Positions 1,525 to 47,247 of a stretch of 64,000 nucleotides of DNA are shown here, in pieces (within the stretch, counting starts at the first letter, position 1; every line of letters starts with the position of its first letter). The stretch is from Oceanobacillus sp. HTM 045. Its GTDB lineage: Bacteria; Pseudomonadota; Alphaproteobacteria; Rhodobacterales; Rhodobacteraceae. The stretch lies in assembly GCA_009733745.1 (NCBI GenBank), contig WNWL01000004.1:1-64000 (forward strand). Direction: 5' to 3'. Made by a program: the position numbers and the translations under genes. The notes under the pieces are model-generated. The model was not told the origin of the DNA, made no database searches, and saw nothing but the letters and a program-made list of their open reading frames with translations.

Positions 1525-1778
1525 GGGTTCAAATCCCTTTTACATCTCCCGCGATCATACCCCGGATTGTGGTCTGCCGTTGCGGGAAACGGGGCCTTTT
1601 GCCGCACGAATCCGGATGCACCGGCCATTCTTGACAGAAACCGGACGCAGGCTGTGGGGAAGGTCACAGGGGAGGCGGGGAGGGCGTGACGGGCGCTTAA
1701 TGCGGGGTCTCAGGAAGGGGCAAGGGGGAGGCGGGCGCGCAGCGCCAGCAACTTGTCACCGATGCAGCAGAGCGCGAA

Positions 1779-1930
1779 GGGACACGACCGGCCCTGGACG
1801 GGCGTGGTGCTCCTGCGGGTCTGCTTGATTTATGCCCGCAAGCCCTCCCGCCCTCAGATCCCGTTGCAGCGTTGCAAAACGCCCGGCCCCGGGGAGGGCC
1901 AGTCGTGGCCCGCGCTGGCCGCGCGTGCTG
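1779..1930 (+). repeat. Copy 1 of a roughly 150 bp structured intergenic repeat (RIME/REP-like)
   Basis: Core is GGGACACGNCCGGCCCTGGACGGGCGTGGTGCT...TGATTTATNCCCGCA...TTGCAGCGTTGCAAAACGCCCGGCCCCGGGGAGGGCC...CGTGGCCCGCGCT.GCCGCGCGTGC. Hairpins: CGCCCGG/CCGGGCG and GCGCG/CGCGC. Lies between the TerB stop and the RnfD-like gene start. Confidence 0.8.
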
Positions 1931-1971
1931 CGGCTGACCGGGGTGCCCTGAACGGCCCCCCGCCGGAAAAA

Positions 1972-6571: not shown

Positions 6572-6922
6572 ATGCTCGACGTCCTGTTCTGGATCGCGCT
6601 GGTCGTGGCGCTGATCTCCGCCGTGCTGGGCAAGACCCTGCTCAACCTGATGGCCGAATACGTCAAGGCCCAGTACCCGGAGAGCTTCACCGGCCTCGCC
6701 GAGAAGGACCGCTCGCTGGTCAAGGGTTTCTCCAAGCCCGAGACCAAGGTTCGCCGCGTGCTCGCCTCGCGCCTGCTCTGGGGCTCGCTCCCGCCGCCGC
6801 TCGACAGCGACGAGCAGATCGAGCGGATGCGCGGCCACTGGCGGATCCTGTTCCTCGGCACGGTCGTTGGCTGCATCTGCGTGATCGCCATCATCTTCGC
6901 CCGCGTGCCCGCCGCGGGGTGA
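6572..6922 (+). CDS. Small membrane protein (2 predicted TM helices)
   Basis: AAGGAGA RBS directly upstream. Hydrophobic N- and C-terminal helices (MLDVLFWIALVVALISAVLG.. and ..LGTVVGCICVIAIIFARV). Confidence 0.5.
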   Translation: MLDVLFWIALVVALISAVLGKTLLNLMAEYVKAQYPESFTGLAEKDRSLVKGFSKPETKVRRVLASRLLWGSLPPPLDSDEQIERMRGHWRILFLGTVVGCICVIAIIFARVPAAG

Positions 6923-6937
6923 GTTGGCCCGCCCCGG

Positions 6938-7087
6938 CACGCGCGGCTAGCGCGGGCCACGTCCGGCCCTTGCCCCGGCCGGGCGTTTCAGGACGTTGCA
7001 AGGGAATCTGAATGCAGGAGGGGTCGCTGCCATAAACCAAGCAAATCCCGAGGTGCACCACGCCCGTCCAGGGCCGGACGTGTCCCT
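6938..7087 (-). repeat. Copy 2 of the structured intergenic repeat, in inverted orientation
   Basis: Reverse complement reads GGGACACGTCCGGCCCTGGACGGGCGTGGTGCACCTCGGGATTTGCTTGGTTTATGGCAGCG...TTGCAACGTCCTGAAACGCCCGGCCGGGGCAAGGGCCGGACGTGGCCCGCGCTAGCCGCGCGTGC. Lies between convergent genes 6572..6922(+) and chaC-like(-). Confidence 0.8.
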
Positions 7088-7284
7088 ACGCGTCGACCTC
7101 GAAAGTCAGCCGGGAAAGTACGTCGGGGAAATCCGGCCGAAACCCCCATTTCACGGCTGGCGGTGACTTCCGGCGCTCTCGGCAGCAACGGTGACATCGG
7201 CGCCGGAAAGTGAAACAGCACCCGCTGAATGACATTTCGGGCGCGGGGACATGACATTCTCGGAGCCCGTGCCAACCCGGCCAA

Positions 7285-9650: not shown

Positions 9651-9750
9651 TTCGCGCGGCCGATCCGCGGCCTGCTTCGTTTTCCGGTTCTCCCGCTTTC
9701 GATCGAAGGTCCGCTCAGGGCGGAGCCCGGCCGGTCCAACCGGTGCGGGC

Positions 9751-9778
9751 AAAAAAAAGGGGCCGCACAAGGCGGCCC
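9751..9778 (-). terminator. Intrinsic terminator (minus strand): GGGCCGCC-TTGT-GCGGCCCC followed by T8
   Basis: Plus strand reads aaaaaaaaggggccgcacaaggcggccc. On the minus strand this is a perfect GC hairpin followed by eight U. It lies about 240 nt downstream of the dinB stop. Confidence 0.5.
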
Positions 9779-9893
9779 AAGTCTAAGGGAGGAAACGCCC
9801 AGGAAGGGCGGCAACGCCGAAGCGCTGCTGGATTGAGATTATGTGTGCGCCGCAACAAAGGCAATGGTGCAAAGCGAAAAAATCTTCCATTCC

Positions 9894-10017: not shown

Positions 10018-11277
10018 TCACTTCAACGCACGTCCGCGGATGATGGCGGTTTCGCCGAAACGGTGGCGGATCGAGTCGGTGGCCGACTCGGCTCGGGCGC
10101 GGGTGGCGGCGTTTCGATCGAAGAGATTCCCCTCGGGCGCGGACGCTGCCGCCGGTTCCAGGGCGGAGATGCCGATGCCGATCAGGCGGAAGGGGCCTTC
10201 GCCGAGGACGGCGTCGAGGAGGGGCTCGGCGGCACCGTAGAGGGTGTCGGCCAGGTTCACCGCCGAATCGAGGCCGGTCTGGCGGGTGACGGTGCGGAAC
10301 TTCGCGGTCTTGAGCTTCAGCGTCACGGTCCGGCCGGCGATCTCCCTGGCCTTGGCGCGGTCGGAAACCTTGACTGCCAGCCGCCAGAGGTGGCCGGCGA
10401 GGCGGTCGCGCTCCGAAGTGTCCTCATCGAAGGTCGTCTCGGCGGAGACCGACTTCATCGGCGAATCGGGCGAGACCCGGCGCGTGTCGCGGCCGTGCGA
10501 CAACTCCGACAGCCGCATTCCCATCGCGCCGTAGCGGGCGACGAGGGCGGCGGGGTCGGCGCGGCGGAGGTCGGCGAGGGTGTGGTACCCGTCCCGCTCC
10601 AGCTTCGCGGACATCGCCCTGCCGACGCCCCAGATGGTCGAGACGGGGCGGGGGGCGAGGAAATCCAGCGTCTCGGCCCGGCCGATCACGGAGAAGCCGC
10701 GCGGCTTGTCGAGGTCGGAGGCGATCTTCGCGAGATACTTGCAGTGGCTGAGCCCGACCGAGGCGGTGACGCCGATCTCCCGCCCGATCCGCCGCACCAG
10801 GCCGGCCATCGCGGCGGCGGGGGACATGCCGAGCAGGCGCTCGGTGCCGGTCAGGTCCAGGAATGCCTCGTCGAGCGAGAGGGGCTCCACCAGCGGGGTC
10901 AGCTCGCGCATCATCTCGCGGATCCGGGCCGAGACCTCGGCGTAGACCGCCATCCGCGGCTTCACCACCACGGCGTCGGGGCAGAGCTTCAGCGCCTTGA
11001 ACATCGGCATCGCCGAGCGGACCCCGTTGATCCGGGCGATGTAGCAGCAGGTCGACACCACCCCGCGCCGCCCGCCGCCGACGATCACCGGACGGTCCCG
11101 CAGCGCGGGGTCGTCGCGCTTCTCCACGCTGGCATAGAAGGCGTCGCAATCCATGTGGGCGATGGCGAGCGATCCCAGCTCGGCATGGACGAGCACGCGC
11201 GGCGACCCGCAATCCGGGCACCGCCCGGACCGTGCATCCTCCGACCAGTGCAGACAGTCGCGGCAGAGCTGGGCCAT
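10018..11277 (-). CDS. dinB: DNA polymerase IV with N-terminal zinc-ribbon
   Basis: MAQLCRDCLHWSEDARSGRCPDCGSPR (zinc ribbon) followed by the IMS/DinB fold (DCDAFYASVE..., SLDEAFLD). The track ORF start at 11346 is an over-extension. Confidence 0.9.
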   Translation of the reverse strand: MAQLCRDCLHWSEDARSGRCPDCGSPRVLVHAELGSLAIAHMDCDAFYASVEKRDDPALRDRPVIVGGGRRGVVSTCCYIARINGVRSAMPMFKALKLCPDAVVVKPRMAVYAEVSARIREMMRELTPLVEPLSLDEAFLDLTGTERLLGMSPAAAMAGLVRRIGREIGVTASVGLSHCKYLAKIASDLDKPRGFSVIGRAETLDFLAPRPVSTIWGVGRAMSAKLERDGYHTLADLRRADPAALVARYGAMGMRLSELSHGRDTRRVSPDSPMKSVSAETTFDEDTSERDRLAGHLWRLAVKVSDRAKAREIAGRTVTLKLKTAKFRTVTRQTGLDSAVNLADTLYGAAEPLLDAVLGEGPFRLIGIGISALEPAAASAPEGNLFDRNAATRARAESATDSIRHRFGETAIIRGRALK

Positions 11278-11804
11278 GCCCGGAATATCGCGCCGGGCGG
11301 GGCTGCGGGCAATGGGTGGATTATGGGGGTGAAAACGCGGTTGCAAGGTTGCAACCTCTGCAAGTTACTGAAAATACTGATAAAAAGTGTTAACGGGGGC
11401 CGGATGGCATGATCCGGCGCGCTAATGCTCGCTTGAGAACCCTGAATTAACTCGGGCCGCTGGTAAGCGTACACTTTCTTCGTGGAGGGTCAGCCCGCAG
11501 GTGGACTTTCGCGGCTTTAAGCAGCGGTTCAACATCGTACTCCATTCGGCGCAGCACTCGCCGGTCTATCGGGTATGGAAGGGCTATTGGCGCGCCCTGC
11601 GGCCTGAGAACAAACACGGTCTGTTCTCCAGCTTGTGGTAGATCGCTGGACGCGGTATACAAAAAGTTGAGCCGGGCTGCTTGTGGCCCGGCTCTAGTGC
11701 AGCCGCTGCAATGAGCGACCCTATCCAAGGCCATGTGTCCCATAAAGAGGACTCGCCGTCAACGTCTCATGGCAGCCCGACAGCGCCTAAGGAGGGCGTG
11801 CCGA

Positions 11805-12554
11805 ATGCAATATGAGATGAAACTGATCCAGCACGACGTGCAGGGAGGCGTGGTCCAGCAGCGGGCTACAGACGGCTACATCAACGCCACGGCGATGTGC
11901 CGGGCCGCCGGGAAGATGTGGGGCCATTACCGCGAGAACGCGGCAACGAGGGCCTTCTTGGCGGCCTTGGCGACCGATATCGGAAATCCGATATCGGAGC
12001 TTGTGCAGTCTGTAAAAGGAGGCGACCCAAGGCTTCAGGGGACTTGGGTTCATCCTCAGGTCGCAGTGAACCTAGCGCAGTGGTTGTCGCCAGAGTTTGC
12101 CGTCAAGGTGACCAAGTGGGTTCACGATTGGCTTAGTGGTCGCGGTGCAGAGGCAAGTTACAGTTACCACCTGCGGCGCTACACAGCTAATGTTTCCAAT
12201 ATTCCTTACGGTCATTTTTCGATCCTACAAGAGATGATGATCGGCCTGATAGGGCCGATGGAGTCACGAGGATATTTACTCCCAGAGAATATGCTGCCAG
12301 ACATCTCGCAGGGTCGGATGTTCTGTAGGTTTTTGCGGGAAGAGCATGGCCTCGATACTGATCGTCTGCCGAAGTACCGGCATGAGTTCGAGGATGGTCG
12401 CGTCGTATCAGCAAACGCCTACCCTAACGCGCTACTCCCTGCGTTCCGGCAGCACTTTTTCGAGGTTTGGATTCCGGAGCGAGCCGAAGTCTACTTCAAG
12501 AAGCGTGATGCCAAGGCTCTAGAGTATTTGCCTTATCTGCTTCCCGCTGCATAA
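11805..12554 (+). CDS. KilA-N domain protein (249 aa) with uncharacterised C-terminal domain
   Basis: N-terminus LIQHDVQGGVVQQRATDGYINATAMCRAAGKMWGHYRENAATRAFLAALATDIGNPISELVQSVKGGDPRLQGTWVHPQVAVNLAQWLSPEFAVKVTKWV matches the KilA-N/APSES-type DNA-binding fold. Strong RBS AAGGAGGG 7 nt upstream of the ATG. The gene and its 500 bp upstream region are visibly lower in GC than their surroundings. Confidence 0.75.
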   Translation: MQYEMKLIQHDVQGGVVQQRATDGYINATAMCRAAGKMWGHYRENAATRAFLAALATDIGNPISELVQSVKGGDPRLQGTWVHPQVAVNLAQWLSPEFAVKVTKWVHDWLSGRGAEASYSYHLRRYTANVSNIPYGHFSILQEMMIGLIGPMESRGYLLPENMLPDISQGRMFCRFLREEHGLDTDRLPKYRHEFEDGRVVSANAYPNALLPAFRQHFFEVWIPERAEVYFKKRDAKALEYLPYLLPAA

Positions 12555-12589
12555 GGTGCCTGAGGCTCCGGCTGAGTGCGGGAGCCTCG

Positions 12590-12702
12590 CATTTCTTTCC
12601 CAACCCCTAGCTCCCGCACTCCGATCCACTTGCAGCATTGCAGAACGCCCGGCCCGGGGGAGGGCCGGGCGTGGCCCGGGCTGGTCGCCCGGGCTGCGGA
12701 TG
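12590..12702 (+). repeat. Copy 3 of the structured intergenic repeat (5' portion diverged)
   Basis: ..CTTGCAGCATTGCAGAACGCCCGGCCCGGGGGAGGGCCGGGCGTGGCCCGGGCTGGTCGCCCGGGC.. Lies between convergent KilA-N(+) and ParB-like(-) genes. Confidence 0.7.
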
Positions 12703-12753
12703 GTCGGGGCGAGCATTCCGCAGGCCGCGCCTTCTGGAGGGCGGTCCAGAAGC

Positions 12754-13683
12754 TCAATCCACTGGCGCGAAGAGCCTGTCGACCGCTTCGAAGACGTGGT
12801 CCATCAGGTCGCTGTGCGCGTCCCTGCCGGTGAAGTGCAGGCACCAGCCGTCGCGGGTGCGTTCGCGCCGGACGGTCAGGGTGTGGCGGACCTTCGCGAC
12901 GCGCCGGGGGCGGGGCGTCGGCTCGCCCCAGCGCGGCTCCCTTATGGTCTCTCCCTTCGGCAGGTCTTCCGCTTCGCGGAGGATCGGCTGGATCAGTGCC
13001 ATCTGGTGATCGTGGTCCTGTATCGACGACTCCTCCAGCGCGGCGCGGAAGACATGGGTGAAACCCTTGCGGCAGGCGTCGGCGACGCGGAGCGCCATCT
13101 GCTGGGACATCTTCTCCGGCGTGGTGAGCCAGCCGTCGAGGTCTTCCGCGAGCCGGGCGAGCTGGCGGATCCGGCGGCGCTTGTACTTGTCCGCCGCCGG
13201 AAACAGCTTCTCCACCGCCTCCTCGATGTTGGCGAATACCTCGTGGCGGACGGCCTGCATGGCGGCGTGGCCCTTTTCCCAGGGGGAGAGTTCGGCGCGG
13301 ATCTCGTTTTCCTCGATCATCGCGGCCAGCGCCTCGGCGGTGCTGGCGGGTGTGCGCACGAGGGCGGGGATGGTGGCGTAGCGGTCCTGCCCGGTCTGCG
13401 CGTGGAGGTCGCGGACGACGCAGAAGCGGCGGTAGCCGGAGATCAGGCCGTATTGCACCGGGGGCCGCGGCTCCGCGAGGCGGTAGAGTTCCACCGGCAT
13501 CCGCACGCCGCTGGCGGCGATGGAGGCCTGCAGCTCGTCCATCTGCTCCTGCACGAGGCCGGTGCGGTCGCGGTCGAGCGCGCCGGGGTCGATCTCCGCG
13601 AGGGGGACGTGGAGGAGGGTCGCGGTATCGTCCGGCGTTCCGGTGGGGGTTTCGGTGGGCGTTTCGGTGAGGGTGTGCGTCAT
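12754..13683 (-). CDS. ParB/Sulfiredoxin-fold (ParB N-terminal nuclease-like domain) protein, 309 aa
   Basis: Start MTHTLTETPTETPTGTPDD.. (ATG at 13683). The ParB N-domain region is LLHVPLAEIDPGALDRDRTGLVQEQMDELQASIAASGVRMPVELYRL...YGLISGYRRFCVVRDL. The C-terminal roughly 150 aa are unassigned. The track ORF start 13890 is an Arg-rich over-extension. Confidence 0.7.
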   Translation of the reverse strand: MTHTLTETPTETPTGTPDDTATLLHVPLAEIDPGALDRDRTGLVQEQMDELQASIAASGVRMPVELYRLAEPRPPVQYGLISGYRRFCVVRDLHAQTGQDRYATIPALVRTPASTAEALAAMIEENEIRAELSPWEKGHAAMQAVRHEVFANIEEAVEKLFPAADKYKRRRIRQLARLAEDLDGWLTTPEKMSQQMALRVADACRKGFTHVFRAALEESSIQDHDHQMALIQPILREAEDLPKGETIREPRWGEPTPRPRRVAKVRHTLTVRRERTRDGWCLHFTGRDAHSDLMDHVFEAVDRLFAPVD

Positions 13684-13925
13684 GGCGGGTCTCCTGCGCT
13701 GGGTGCCGGGGGGGCGGCTGGGGGCGGTCGGGGGCAGGGGAGAGAATCGCCCGGTCCCGCGGGCGTTGCGCCTTCGGGCGAGGAGCGCGCGGTTGAGAAC
13801 GCGAGACTTGCATTCTCCACCACCACTCCTTGCAGGGCGTTGACTGTCCAAAGTATGCAGGCGGCGGGGGCATCTTCCCATCGCAGCCATCCGGCGGTCG
13901 CGCGGTCACACAATCAGGTGGTCAC

Positions 13926-15467: not shown

Positions 15468-15624
15468 CGCCCCGGCGGGCGGCGTGGTTCACGCGGAGCG
15501 CCGCCGATTAAGGAAACGTTTACGGGTCAACGCGATGCTTGGACCTGGTTGTTCCAGCGTCCTGTTCCGCGATTTGCGTAAGTGGTGTCCTGACCCCGAA
15601 CGGATCTGCCGGAGTACGCTTCCA

Positions 15625-15903
15625 ATGACTGAAGCCCTGAGATTGATCGACTTCGCCGAAGACGGTCCTTGCGACGACGACCTGCCGGCCATGCAAGAGA
15701 CCCCGGACTACACCCCCAGCCGCGCCGAGCGCGAACTGGTGCAGGCCTATATCGCGCTGATCAACATCGGCGCGGCGTCGCATGGCTTCCTGCACGACAA
15801 CGCCGAGACGCTGGACAGCCATACCCGCGCCTTCCTCGCGCATCTGCGCGACGTGGCCGGTGCGGCCGCCGACCGGGCGGGAGACAGCCTGCGGGAGATC
15901 TGA
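15625..15903 (+). CDS. Hypothetical protein (92 aa)
   Basis: MTEALRLIDFAEDGPCDDDLPAMQETPDYTPSRAERELVQAYIALINIGAASHGFLHDNAETLDSHTRAFLAHLRDV.. GGAG lies 10 nt upstream. Located directly downstream of the kinase. No recognisable family. Confidence 0.35.
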   Translation: MTEALRLIDFAEDGPCDDDLPAMQETPDYTPSRAERELVQAYIALINIGAASHGFLHDNAETLDSHTRAFLAHLRDVAGAAADRAGDSLREI

Positions 15904-28474: not shown

Positions 28475-28802
28475 GACCTTCACACTCCGGAGCCTTTCCC
28501 TCCGGCCTCTCATTTTGCCTGCCCGGTCCATCCGGGAAGGCGGACAGGAAGCTCCAGGGCCGGCGACCCGGGCCGGCGGCGGGCCTTGGCGAGCGGGCGT
28601 CGGGGAGCCCGGGCGGGACGCAAACGTCCGGCCCGGGCCCGCCTCCGCCATCATCCGCGGCGCGGGCCGCCGGCGCGGGGCATCGCCGGTTCCCGGCGCG
28701 TTGCCCGAGGGCGCCGCGCCGGTCGCCGGCTCCGCAGCCGGCCCTGAAACCCCAGTTCTGTGACCACCTTGTAAGGGTGGGACCGCATGGAAAGCGGCGG
28801 CT

Positions 28803-28873
28803 TGGAAGGGAGGATTCGAACCTCCGACGAACGGTATCGCGACCGGCGCTCTGACCAACTGAGCTACATCCAG
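28803..28873 (-). pseudogene. tRNA-like sequence 1 (probable tRNA remnant or chimera)
   Basis: Reverse complement reads ..CTGGATGTAGCTCAGTTGGTCAGAGCGCCGGTCGCGATACCGTTCGTCGGAGGTTCGAATCCTCCCTTCCAAG. D-arm and T-arm are canonical (GGAGG-TTCGAAT-CCTCC, Arg/Pro-like). The acceptor stem cannot pair and the anticodon arm is only 4 bp with a 6-nt loop. Confidence 0.35.
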
Positions 28874-44940: not shown

Positions 44941-45042
44941 TTTCTTCCTGATTGCCGGTCAGTGCGCCGCGTCTGTGGGTGGGCCTGTGGCGGTGCAGCA
45001 CCCGCGGCGCGCGGCAGGCGTCTGCGCATGTGCTGAGCGCGG

Positions 45043-45196
45043 AGGGACACGTCCGGCCCTGGTCGGGCGTGGTGCTAGCTAGGGTCTGCATGATTTATCC
45101 CCGCACCCCCTCCCGACCTACGAGCCATTTGCAGCGTCAGAGAACGCCCGGCCCCGGGGAGGGCCGGGCGTGGCCCGGGCTAGTCGCCCGGGCCGT
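45043..45196 (+). repeat. Copy 4 of the structured intergenic repeat
   Basis: GGGACACGTCCGGCCCTGGTCGGGCGTGGTGCTAGCTAGGGTCTGCATGATTTATCCCCGCACCCCCTCCCGACC...TTGCAGCGTCAGAGAACGCCCGGCCCCGGGGAGGGCCGGGCGTGGCCCGGGCTAGTCGCCCGGGC. Lies between the convergent hypothetical(+) and cobA(-) genes. Confidence 0.8.
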
Positions 45197-45279
45197 GGCT
45201 GGTGCTGTGCGAGAACGAGAATCTGACGATCTTGGGAAGGGAAGGGCTGTCGTGCCCTTCGGGACCGCAAGGCCCCGAT

Positions 45280-47030: not shown

Positions 47031-47049
47031 GGGGAGTGCGGAGGGCCGC

Positions 47050-47192
47050 GACCGGCCCTGGACGGGCGTGGTGCTCCCAACGGGCTGCGTGATTTATCCC
47101 AGCACCCACTCCGACCCAACGATCCCCTTGCAGCGTCGCAATACGCCCGGCCCCGGGGAGGGCCGGACGTGGCCCGCGCTAGCCGCGCGTGC
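47050..47192 (+). repeat. Copy 5 of the structured intergenic repeat
   Basis: GACCGGCCCTGGACGGGCGTGGTGCTCCCAACGGGCTGCGTGATTTATCCCAGCACCCACTCCGACC...TTGCAGCGTCGCAATACGCCCGGCCCCGGGGAGGGCCGGACGTGGCCCGCGCTAGCCGCGCGTGC. Lies between convergent cobK(+) and soxG(-). Confidence 0.8.
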
Positions 47193-47247
47193 TAGATATG
47201 AAACGAATCTCAGCAGAGATTTGCTTGGCTCTCTGGCAGTCAGCCTC

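What the first reader, a model, noticed from the sequence alone, without database searches (positions are those of the whole stretch)
11290..13690. Lower-GC single-gene islet encoding a KilA-N-domain protein (BstA-like architecture) beside a ParB/Srx-fold gene
From just upstream of dinB to repeat copy 3 (about 11.29-12.59 kb) the sequence drops visibly below the 68-70% GC background, with runs such as ctgaaaatactgataaaaagtgttaac. That stretch carries exactly one gene, for a 249-aa protein whose N-terminal 100 residues are a KilA-N/APSES-type DNA-binding domain and whose C-terminal half (YGHFSILQEMMIGLIGPMESRGYLLPENMLPDISQGRMFCRFLREEHGLDTDRLPKYRHEFEDGR...) matches nothing I recognise. A KilA-N N-terminus plus an unknown C-terminal effector region in a solitary, horizontally-acquired-looking gene is the architecture reported for the BstA abortive-infection protein. 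The 500-bp leader is packed with perfect inverted repeats: GGTTGCAACC, GCCGGAT-ggcatg-ATCCGGC, GAGAACA-N9-TGTTCTC and GAGCCGGGC-tgcttgtg-GCCCGGCTC. The convergent neighbour encodes a ParB N-terminal (nuclease-like) domain protein with an unassigned C-terminal domain and a TETPTETPTGTP repeat, followed by an orphan HWE sensor kinase. This is the best candidate in the window for a phage-defence or mobile-element-derived module.
Basis: partly seen in the sequence, partly recalled or inferred. Interest (0 to 1): 0.7.

Follow-up and report, generated by a model that had tools for sequence, protein, structure and literature searches.

The report
Stranded BstA abortive-infection gene islet
A 1.2-kb foreign, lower-GC insert next to dinB carries one intact gene of the known BstA phage-defence family, apparently left behind by a decayed IS1595-type transposon, so it is a new member of a known kind rather than a new system.

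Summary
About 11,350-12,555 has 52-61% GC against ~70% around it, and GC3 is 0.63 against 0.88-0.97 in neighbouring genes. It holds one gene, 11805-12554 (+), 249 aa.

The protein belongs to the BstA family. It has a canonical KilA-N domain plus the BstA_C domain (PF26567), and it matches the PHROG that contains BstA-BTP1 over its full length.

None of 80 Rhodobacterales dinB loci has this gene. The nearest relatives have pyrF directly beside dinB.

No phage, integrase or transposase gene lies within the window's 11.8 kb upstream or ~21 kb downstream of the gene.

The three closest homologs with readable context (77-79% identity) are passengers in 3.5-3.9 kb IS1595-family transposons. These have 24-bp terminal inverted repeats, and two of them have exact 8-bp target duplications. 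A distant homolog sits in a second, two-gene IS1595 element.

The window's leader keeps only the last ~20 codons of such a transposase, so the copy is immobilised.

I found no aba-like element. The ParB-like and HWE-kinase neighbours have host composition and are not linked to BstA, although the slot beside that ParB-like gene holds other Abi genes in some relatives.

Defence activity is inferred, not shown.

The parts
11350..12555 (.). Lower-GC horizontally acquired islet. The left edge is approximate. The right junction lies somewhere in 12555-12610.
   Evidence: GC 0.52-0.61 against ~0.70. GC3 0.63 against 0.88-0.97. The segment is absent from 80 related dinB loci. DNA similarity to homolog loci ends at 12544-12545, with weak similarity for 20-30 nt past the stop codon.
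11805..12554 (+). bstA-family gene, 249 aa: KilA-N domain (residues 13-111) plus BstA_C domain (about 117-243).
   Evidence: Pfam KilA-N 1.3e-23. PHROG 6287 'BstA abortive infection system' 9.7e-62 over residues 1-243. PADLOC BstA 7e-17 on residues 117-236. PF26567 BstA_C is precomputed on the identical protein P0001. BLASTP to BstA-BTP1 gives 29% identity over 127 aa, E 5e-9. hhalign gives 97.5% probability. All 52 invariant columns of an 84-sequence alignment that includes this protein are therefore kept in it. AF2 pLDDT is 86.
11789..11795 (+). Shine-Dalgarno sequence AAGGAGG, 9 nt before the ATG.
   Evidence: Read from the sequence. An equivalent AAGG/GGAG motif is present upstream of homologs.
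11531..11605 (+). Relic of the last ~20 codons of an IS1595-family transposase (..NIVLHSAQHSPVYRVWKGYWR..).
   Evidence: tblastn of the transposases that sit upstream of the closest bstA homologs gives 11/20 identities to their C-terminus (IVVSNAMGAPVSRTWKGYWQ). E is 6e-6 to 7e-5 against the leader and 0.03 against the whole 64 kb, where it is the top hit. It is on the same strand as bstA and about 200 nt before its ATG, against 233-251 nt in intact elements.
11669..11694 (.). GC-rich hairpin GAGCCGGGC-N8-GCCCGGCTC. It is terminator-like when read on the minus strand.
   Evidence: It is the positional counterpart of GC-rich hairpins 100-150 nt upstream of the start codon in most homologs, and is nearly identical to the one in L105.
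11606..11628 (.). Perfect inverted repeat GAGAACA-N9-TGTTCTC, just after the transposase relic.
   Evidence: Function unknown.
11399..11418 (.). Perfect inverted repeat GCCGGAT-N6-ATCCGGC.
   Evidence: Function unknown.
11339..11356 (.). Inverted repeat GGTTGCAA-GG-TTGCAACC at the boundary between the dinB upstream region and the islet.
   Evidence: It could belong to dinB regulation. No alphaproteobacterial LexA box was found above chance.
10018..11283 (-). dinB (context, left flank).
   Evidence: Pfam IMS, IMS_C and IMS_HHH. 60-71% identity to 80 Rhodobacterales orthologs, which align from residue 1-6 of this start.
12597..12715 (+). Copy of a host dispersed structured repeat filling the bstA/ParB-like intergenic space (context, right flank).
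   Evidence: Five copies in the window. The consensus fold has compensatory changes.
12754..13683 (-). Orphan ParB-like gene, 309 aa from MTHTL (context, not part of the BstA unit).
   Evidence: ParB_N 2.2e-6. Homologs at 45-60% identity occur in marine Rhodobacterales, including Thermohalobaculum. GC3 is 0.91. The order pyrF, ParB-like, slot, dinB is seen piecewise in L055, L058, L185, L192 and L237.

Best explanation
A ~1.2-kb piece of foreign DNA sits in a variable slot between dinB and an orphan parB-like gene. The host chromosome is a Thermohalobaculum-like member of the Rhodobacterales.

The insert carries one intact gene of the BstA family of single-protein abortive-infection systems, with an N-terminal KilA-N DNA-binding domain and a C-terminal BstA_C domain.

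It most likely arrived as the passenger gene of an IS1595-family transposon, like those carrying its closest relatives. It then lost the transposase (of which only the last ~20 codons remain) and both terminal repeats, so it is now fixed in place.

The mode of action is inferred by analogy with BstA from Salmonella prophage BTP1. The protein would be made constitutively. On infection it would gather on replicating phage DNA through the KilA-N domain and block phage DNA replication. The infected cell dies without releasing progeny.

The gene is not on a prophage that must itself replicate, so it needs no aba self-immunity element. None is detectable.

Shown here: family membership, foreign origin, absence from related loci, the transposon-borne state of the nearest homologs, and the transposase relic. 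Inferred: expression, defence activity and mechanism.
For: Family membership:
- Pfam KilA-N 1.3e-23.
- PHROG 6287 at 9.7e-62, full length; the same family scores BstA-BTP1 at 2.1e-150.
- PADLOC BstA 7e-17.
- PF26567 BstA_C on the identical protein and on every listed homolog.
- hhalign 97.5%, E 7.8e-12 against BstA-BTP1.
- Shared motifs PxGxFS..EM, PDISxG, H...D and YP.

Fold:
- The full-length model has pLDDT 86, and its N-terminal domain hits Mbp1/APSES.

Foreign origin:
- GC and GC3.
- 0 of 80 related dinB loci carry the gene.
- 54 of 80 keep pyrF within 8 kb upstream of dinB, and six of them, including the closest relative (L003), have it 30-130 bp away. The gap in the window is 4.6 kb.

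Vehicle:
- L083, L087 and L088 (77-79% aa identity) hold bstA inside units bounded by CGGCCTTATGTA(T/G)CAAACGCACCA inverted repeats. Exact 8-bp duplications are AGTTTGTC in L083 and GATATTTG in L088.
- L131 has perfect 43-bp repeats enclosing only an IS1595-type transposase plus bstA.
- The transposase relic lies in the window's leader.

Phage-borne family:
- 348 IMG/VR contigs encode relatives.
- Other homologs lie at prophage ends.

No prophage here:
-.

Mechanism:
- As reported for BstA-BTP1, BstA-Ec and BstA-Kp in PMC8585504.
Against: - No member of this canonical-KilA-N clade has been tested, as far as I could find. It shares only about 29% identity with BstA-BTP1, and only over the C-terminal domain.
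- No sigma-70-like promoter was detected in the leader. The native upstream context (transposase or prophage repressor) is gone, so expression is unproven.
- The PADLOC BstA profile aligns only over its C-terminal 43%.
- The transposase relic is only ~20 residues. No terminal repeat is left.
Confidence: 0.7

Rival explanations
1. The gene is a KilA-N-type transcription regulator or antirepressor left over from a decayed mobile element. It has no defence role.
For: The KilA-N half also matches PHROG 129 'transcriptional regulator' at 2.8e-23. Phage records annotate homologs as DNA-binding protein or transcriptional regulator. No experiment exists for this clade.
Against: The match to the BstA PHROG is full length and about 38 orders of magnitude better. 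The BstA_C half is conserved to the residue with BstA-BTP1. Three diverse BstA proteins all gave defence in PMC8585504.
Confidence: 0.12
2. The copy is an unexpressed or inactive relic. It is intact by chance because the transfer was recent, but silent after losing its promoter context.
For: The transposase and terminal repeats are lost. No promoter-like site was found. The tail has a 9-nt in-frame deletion relative to the closest homologs. The unameliorated GC3 implies recent arrival.
Against: The 249-codon frame is intact with a strong ribosome-binding site. The 52 columns that are invariant across the 84-sequence alignment include this protein, so it keeps them all. The conserved part of the leader is retained: the hairpin and a GTCAAC box. 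The simple promoter scan does not cover alphaproteobacterial promoters well.
Confidence: 0.13
3. BstA and the convergent ParB-like protein form a two-gene defence module.
For: The genes are adjacent. Relatives of the ParB-like gene often lie next to defence genes: AIPR/AbiU in L055, AriAB in L092 and an Abi_C protein in L091.
Against: The compositions differ (GC3 0.63 against 0.91). No ParB-like gene was seen beside bstA in the eight homolog loci whose gene tables were read, and none of the 84 ParB-like loci holds BstA. The ParB-like gene has no PADLOC hit. It keeps its place between pyrF and dinB in relatives that carry other cargo.
Confidence: 0.05

Closest known systems
BstA of Salmonella prophage BTP1 (st313-td), with BstA-Ec and BstA-Kp (Owen et al. 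2021, PMC8585504)
   Same: A single gene with two domains: KilA-N(-like) at the N-terminus and BstA_C at the C-terminus. It falls in the same PHROG (6287) and carries the same Pfam BstA_C domain. Conserved C-domain motifs are shared. The family was already reported in alpha-, beta- and gammaproteobacteria, including a Paracoccus homolog, with 21% of members outside prophages.
   Different: Only about 29% identity, limited to the C-domain. The N-domain is a canonical Pfam KilA-N, not one detectable only by HHpred. The protein is shorter (249 against 307 aa). It is not downstream of a prophage repressor and not in a prophage. No aba-like element is detectable. This clade is untested.
IS1595-family insertion sequences carrying passenger genes (transporter IS)
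   Same: The nearest homologs lie with an IS1595-type DDE transposase (Zn_ribbon_IS1595 plus DDE_Tnp_IS1595) inside terminal inverted repeats. Two of the three have 8-bp target duplications, which from my own knowledge is the duplication size usual for this family. The window keeps the transposase's C-terminal codons at the expected distance from bstA.
   Different: In the window there is no transposase gene, no terminal repeat and no recognisable duplication, so it is not an IS copy now. I found no paper linking IS1595 with BstA or KilA-N.
KilA-N / Bro-N phage antirepressor-type proteins and APSES factors (Mbp1)
   Same: The N-terminal fold and Pfam family are shared. The model superposes on Mbp1, PCG2 and Bqt4.
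   Different: Those proteins lack BstA_C. Roseobacter plasmids carry Bro-N plus BstA_C fusions. This suggests BstA_C is the constant module and the DNA-binding head is exchangeable.
Defence-gene hotspots and islands (for example the cI-N slot of lambdoid phages holding rexAB or bstA)
   Same: A fixed chromosomal slot, here beside the orphan parB-like gene and upstream of dinB, holds different accessory genes in different genomes. Other Abi families (AIPR/AbiU, AriAB, Abi_C) are among them.
   Different: The slot is chromosomal, not in a prophage. The evidence comes from a handful of contigs. A bulk scan of 62 neighbours showed few defence hits.

Membership tests
BstA abortive-infection family | N-terminal KilA-N or KilA-N-like DNA-binding domain | tested here: met
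   Pfam PF04383 at 1.3e-23 on residues 13-111. The AF2 model hits Mbp1/APSES domains. A profile of the family hits Mbp1 in the PDB sequences.
BstA abortive-infection family | C-terminal BstA_C domain homologous to residues ~156-307 of BstA-BTP1 | tested here: met
   PF26567 BstA_C is precomputed on the identical protein. PADLOC BstA 7e-17. BLASTP E 5e-9 at 29% identity. hhalign 97.5% probability. The local Pfam copy did not list PF26567, so this rests on the precomputed annotation plus three independent comparisons.
BstA abortive-infection family | Full-length match to a family profile that contains the characterised protein | tested here: met
   PHROG 6287: window protein 9.7e-62 over 1-243; BstA-BTP1 2.1e-150; E. 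coli phage homolog 2.7e-89.
BstA abortive-infection family | Location in a prophage, typically just downstream of the repressor gene (typical, not obligatory: 21% of the published set are prophage-independent) | tested here: not met
   No phage, integrase or transposase Pfam family among 24 ORFs in 1-33.5 kb. No tblastn hit to 27 phage hallmark proteins. The flanks are dinB, pyrF and clpB.
BstA abortive-infection family | Cognate aba DNA element overlapping the start of the gene, with terminal direct repeats | tested here: inconclusive
   The script recovers the BTP1 CCCGCCA repeats. In the window it finds only GGCGTG at -10 and +42, and there is no repeat conserved among homologs. Such 6-mers occur in 52-79% of control regions. 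aba elements are cognate and sequence-diverse, so absence cannot be proven from sequence.
BstA abortive-infection family | Abortive infection with a block of phage DNA replication | not testable with these tools
   Needs phage challenge, survival assays and a phage DNA time course, as in PMC8585504.
IS1595-family transposon (as a current mobile element) | Intact DDE transposase with an N-terminal zinc ribbon | tested here: not met
   Only ~20 C-terminal codons are recognisable at 11531-11593.
IS1595-family transposon (as a current mobile element) | Terminal inverted repeats and an 8-bp target duplication | tested here: not met
   The 28-nt repeat probe taken from L083 has no match in the window at up to 8 substitutions. 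The intact relatives do have the repeats, and two of three have duplications.
ParB/RepB partition proteins (the neighbour at 12754-13683) | ParB N-terminal domain | tested here: met
   PF02195 at 28 bits, cut-off 26.3. TIGR00180 and PRTRC ParB match below their cut-offs.
ParB/RepB partition proteins (the neighbour at 12754-13683) | Adjacent ParA/RepA ATPase partner | tested here: not met
   Its neighbours are the HWE kinase and bstA. Only the distant homologs at 33-39% identity follow a ParA-like ATPase.

The most novel reading that the evidence does not exclude
BstA may be a recurrent passenger of IS1595-family transposons. That would be a route, independent of prophages, by which a single-gene abortive-infection system hops between chromosomes and plasmids. 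The slot between the orphan parB-like gene and dinB may be a Rhodobacterales hotspot where such single-gene Abi systems (BstA, AIPR/AbiU, AriAB, Abi_C) are exchanged. On a non-replicating chromosomal site BstA would work without any aba self-immunity element. That would make this clade a clean system for separating BstA's sensing from its self-immunity.
Probability: 0.35. Interest if true: 0.55.

Novelty: new member of a known kind. Interest (0 to 1): 0.4.

Why it matters
The finding extends BstA, so far studied only in enterobacterial prophages, to a marine, high-GC alphaproteobacterium. It points to a canonical-KilA-N clade that is widespread: 1613 database proteins and 348 viral contigs match.

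The transposon-borne copies (terminal repeats, with exact target duplications in two of them) show a vehicle for this defence gene that the original description did not report.

The stranded copy gives a natural example of BstA outside any replicating element. That is the situation in which the aba self-immunity logic should be dispensable.

It is also a worked example of a defence gene landing in a small chromosomal variable slot. None of this changes what BstA is thought to be.

Tried and rejected
1. aba-like element. Direct repeats straddling the start codon are at chance level and are not conserved among homologs.
2. Terminal repeats of the IS1595 element. None in the window.
3. Alphaproteobacterial LexA box GTTC-N7-GTTC upstream of dinB. 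There is one 1-mismatch site at 11437-11451, but 42 such sites in the window against 36 expected.
4. Left boundary by alignment with relatives' dinB upstream regions. There is no nucleotide conservation to use.
5. Source contig of the identical protein P0001. It is not on record for context look-up. The genome collection holds no close relative; the best dinB match is 71%. Presence or absence within the species could therefore not be tested.
6. Leader DNA against plasmids: no match. The L083 transposon against plasmids: only partial transposase hits.
7. Rfam on the window and on the islet: nothing relevant.
8. Minus-strand 98-aa ORF 11447-11743 and orf15484: no Pfam family. I treat the first as spurious.
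10. ParB-like flank as a general defence hotspot. A bulk PADLOC scan of 62 downstream neighbours gave only a few hits. One reason is that many of the hits at 33-39% identity appear to be RepA/RepB-type plasmid partition pairs.
11. A conserved small hairpin and a GTCAAG(G) box in the leaders of homologs were noted but not taken as far as a covariance test.
Full report
**What is there**

The sliding GC profile drops from about 0.70 to 0.52-0.61 between 11,200 and 12,549 and then recovers. The only credible gene in the dip is 11805-12554 on the plus strand, 249 aa. AAGGAGG lies nine bases before its ATG. Homologs start at the same MQY.MKLI residues, so the longer 273-aa reading frame is not the gene. 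Its third-position GC is 0.63. For dinB, the ParB-like gene, the HWE kinase, pyrF and clpB it is 0.88-0.97.

They are far more than shuffles give: a nested count of 7 against 0.47 +/- 0.87, and only 2.5% of equal-sized tiles of the window reach 7.

**What the protein is**

- Residues 13-111 are a canonical KilA-N domain (Pfam 1.3e-23).
- The whole protein matches PHROG 6287, 'BstA abortive infection system, replication inhibitor', at 9.7e-62 over residues 1-243.
- The characterised BstA of Salmonella phage BTP1 (L001:28112-29035, minus strand) scores 2.1e-150 on the same family. An E. coli phage homolog that is 50% identical to the window protein scores 2.7e-89.
- The PADLOC BstA model matches the C-terminal half at 7e-17.
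- The protein database carries an identical protein (P0001). It and all listed homologs are annotated with PF04383 plus PF26567, which the context tool names BstA_C.
- Directly against BstA-BTP1, only the C-domain aligns: 29% over 127 residues, E 5e-9. Profile against sequence gives 97.5% probability.
- The shared motifs include PxGxFS..EM, PDISxG, H...D and YP.

The protein is a BstA-family member from a clade with a textbook KilA-N head.

Roseobacter plasmids carry Bro-N plus BstA_C proteins. This fits an exchangeable DNA-binding head on a constant effector.

**Is it foreign, and where did it land**

A scan of one genome per species found 80 Rhodobacterales dinB loci at 60-71% identity. The best matches are unnamed MAGs and Thermohalobaculum, family Paracoccaceae.

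- None encodes a BstA relative.
- 54 of the 80 keep pyrF within 8 kb upstream of dinB. Six of them, including the closest relative (L003), also L005, L045, L054, L056 and L082, have it only 30-130 bp away.
- In the window the same interval is 4.6 kb. It holds an unassigned ORF, the HWE kinase, the ParB-like gene, a host repeat and the bstA islet.

The ParB-like gene and the kinase have host composition. The order pyrF, ParB-like, roughly 2-kb slot, dinB recurs piecewise in other contigs (L055, L058, L185, L192, L237). The ParB-like gene therefore looks like an older part of the backbone rather than part of the islet, and bstA occupies the slot next to it.

Within the window's 11.8 kb to the left and about 21 kb to the right of bstA, all confident Pfam hits are housekeeping families. 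A panel of 27 phage hallmark proteins finds nothing. By the criterion of Owen et al. this is a 'putatively prophage-independent' BstA, a class that made up 21% of their set.

**How it got there**

The three closest homologs with readable context are Roseobacter sp. CCS2 (L083) and two metagenome contigs (L087, L088), at 77-79% identity.

- All three lie immediately downstream of an IS1595-family transposase, within a conserved block.
- The blocks share only 72-78% nucleotide identity. They are nevertheless bounded by near-identical 24-bp inverted repeats, CGGCCTTATGTA(T/G)CAAACGCACCA.
- Exact 8-bp duplications flank L083 (AGTTTGTC) and L088 (GATATTTG).
- A distant homolog (L131, 52% identity) lies in a second element. 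Perfect 43-bp inverted repeats there enclose just a divergent IS1595-type transposase and bstA, with A-rich flanks.

BstA is therefore a passenger of IS1595-family transposons in at least two lineages.

In the window, the best match of those transposases anywhere in the 64 kb lies in the bstA leader at 11531-11593. It is on the same strand and aligns to the last 20 residues (PVYRVWKGYW against PVSRTWKGYW). It ends about 200 nt before the bstA start, against 233-251 nt in the intact elements. Nothing else of the transposase and no terminal repeat survives.

The simplest reading is that the gene came in on such a transposon, or by recombination with one. The copy is now a stranded fragment.

Other homologs sit at prophage ends beside lysis and tail genes. 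348 IMG/VR contigs encode relatives. Prophages remain the main home of the family.

**The leader**

The GC-rich hairpin at 11669-11694 is terminator-like on the minus strand. It corresponds in position to GC-rich hairpins 100-150 nt upstream of the start in most homologs, and it is almost identical to the one in L105. It is part of the imported unit, not a new regulatory invention.

A GTCAAG(G) box 35-60 nt upstream of the start is the most enriched hexamer in homolog leaders (13 of 57 non-redundant loci, against 2 in controls). The window has GTCAAC at that place.

I looked for an aba-like element as defined for BTP1: 63 bp spanning the start codon with terminal CCCGCC repeats. The script recovers the BTP1 repeats. 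In the window it finds only a 6-mer, with no conservation among homologs. Such 6-mers occur in 52-79% of control regions. No sigma-70-like promoter was detected, which says little for an alphaproteobacterium.

**How it most likely works**

By homology, the protein should behave like BstA-BTP1, BstA-Ec and BstA-Kp. It would be made constitutively, would relocate to replicating phage DNA, would block phage DNA replication, and would cause the loss of the infected cell without progeny (PMC8585504). This is inference. The clade is untested, the similarity to the tested proteins is confined to the C-domain, and expression here is unproven.

A chromosomal, non-replicating copy has no need for self-immunity. 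That is consistent with the lack of an aba-like element.

The rival readings are a plain KilA-N regulator, a silent relic, and a ParB-like/BstA pair. The full-length BstA match argues against the first. The intact and fully conserved frame argues against the second. The complete lack of co-occurrence argues against the third.

**Verdict**

This is a real, horizontally acquired, single-gene BstA islet: a new member of a known defence family in an unusual, non-prophage setting. Two things deserve follow-up. One is the IS1595 passenger relationship. The other is the hint that the slot beside the orphan ParB-like gene collects Abi genes: AIPR/AbiU in L055, AriAB in L092 and an Abi_C protein in L091. 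The second point rests on few contigs, and a bulk scan did not show strong enrichment.

Noticed in passing
L083:7789-11260, L088:32-3642, L087:230-4086, L131:4900-6826: bstA homologs are passenger genes inside IS1595-family transposons. One type is 3.5-3.9 kb, with 24-bp terminal inverted repeats and exact 8-bp target duplications in two of three copies. The other is a 1.9-kb two-gene element with perfect 43-bp repeats. A full-text search for papers holding IS1595 together with KilA-N or passenger-gene terms found none.
   Followed up: partly
window 12555-12753 slot; L055:6050-7756, L092:7925-9475, L091:5951-6853, L178:2595-3380, L221:899-2119: The gene next to close homologs of the orphan ParB-like protein is often a defence or mobile gene. 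Examples are AIPR/AbiU (between ParB-like and dinB), fused AriAB of PARIS (PADLOC 9e-152), an Abi_C protein, DUF3800 and a DDE transposase. This may be a small chromosomal defence slot, but a bulk scan of 62 neighbours gave few hits.
   Followed up: partly
window 1767-1943, 6920-7092 (minus), 12597-12715, 45032-45208, 47031-47207: A dispersed repeat of about 170 nt has five copies in 64 kb. The predicted fold has a long-range stem and a terminal hairpin with a CG-to-GC compensatory change. There is no Rfam match. Copies 1 and 2 are inverted around a 5-kb segment, and copies 4 and 5 are direct around a 2-kb segment.
   Followed up: partly
window 9745-9816 (minus): An mmgR/suhB-type alphaproteobacterial small RNA (Rfam RF00519, 61.7 bits) lies between the N-formylglutamate amidohydrolase gene and dinB.
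   Followed up: no
window 11700-11712 and homolog leaders about 105-120 nt upstream of the start; GTCAAG(G) box about 35-60 nt upstream: Leaders of bstA homologs share three features: a GC-rich terminator-like hairpin, a small 4-6-bp hairpin whose stem sequence differs between loci, and a GTCAAG(G) box, tandem at 10-bp spacing in L083, L087, L088 and L093. These may be a conserved operator or regulatory element. No covariance test was done.
   Followed up: partly
plasmid hits H43-H51 (Sulfitobacter, Phaeobacter, Pseudosulfitobacter): Roseobacter plasmids encode proteins annotated as Bro-N domain-containing that match the BstA_C half at 31% identity. This looks like a head-swapped BstA architecture.
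   Followed up: no
L006:7771-7850 (Thermohalobaculum MAG, upstream of dinB): Translation shows ..EIEVDESYFGGK.., a motif typical of IS1595-type transposases, just upstream of dinB in a relative. The closer IS1595 queries did not hit it by tblastn.
   Followed up: no
window 28799-28873: ARAGORN calls an odd tRNA with a four-base anticodon (gcga) directly next to tRNA-Ala. Rfam scores it as a tRNA at 46 bits.
   Followed up: no
window 15484-15903 (+): A 139-aa ORF lies between the HWE kinase and pyrF. Its GC3 is intermediate (0.76), it has no Pfam family, and it has no counterpart in the 80 related loci. It may be another accessory gene or may not be a gene.
   Followed up: partly
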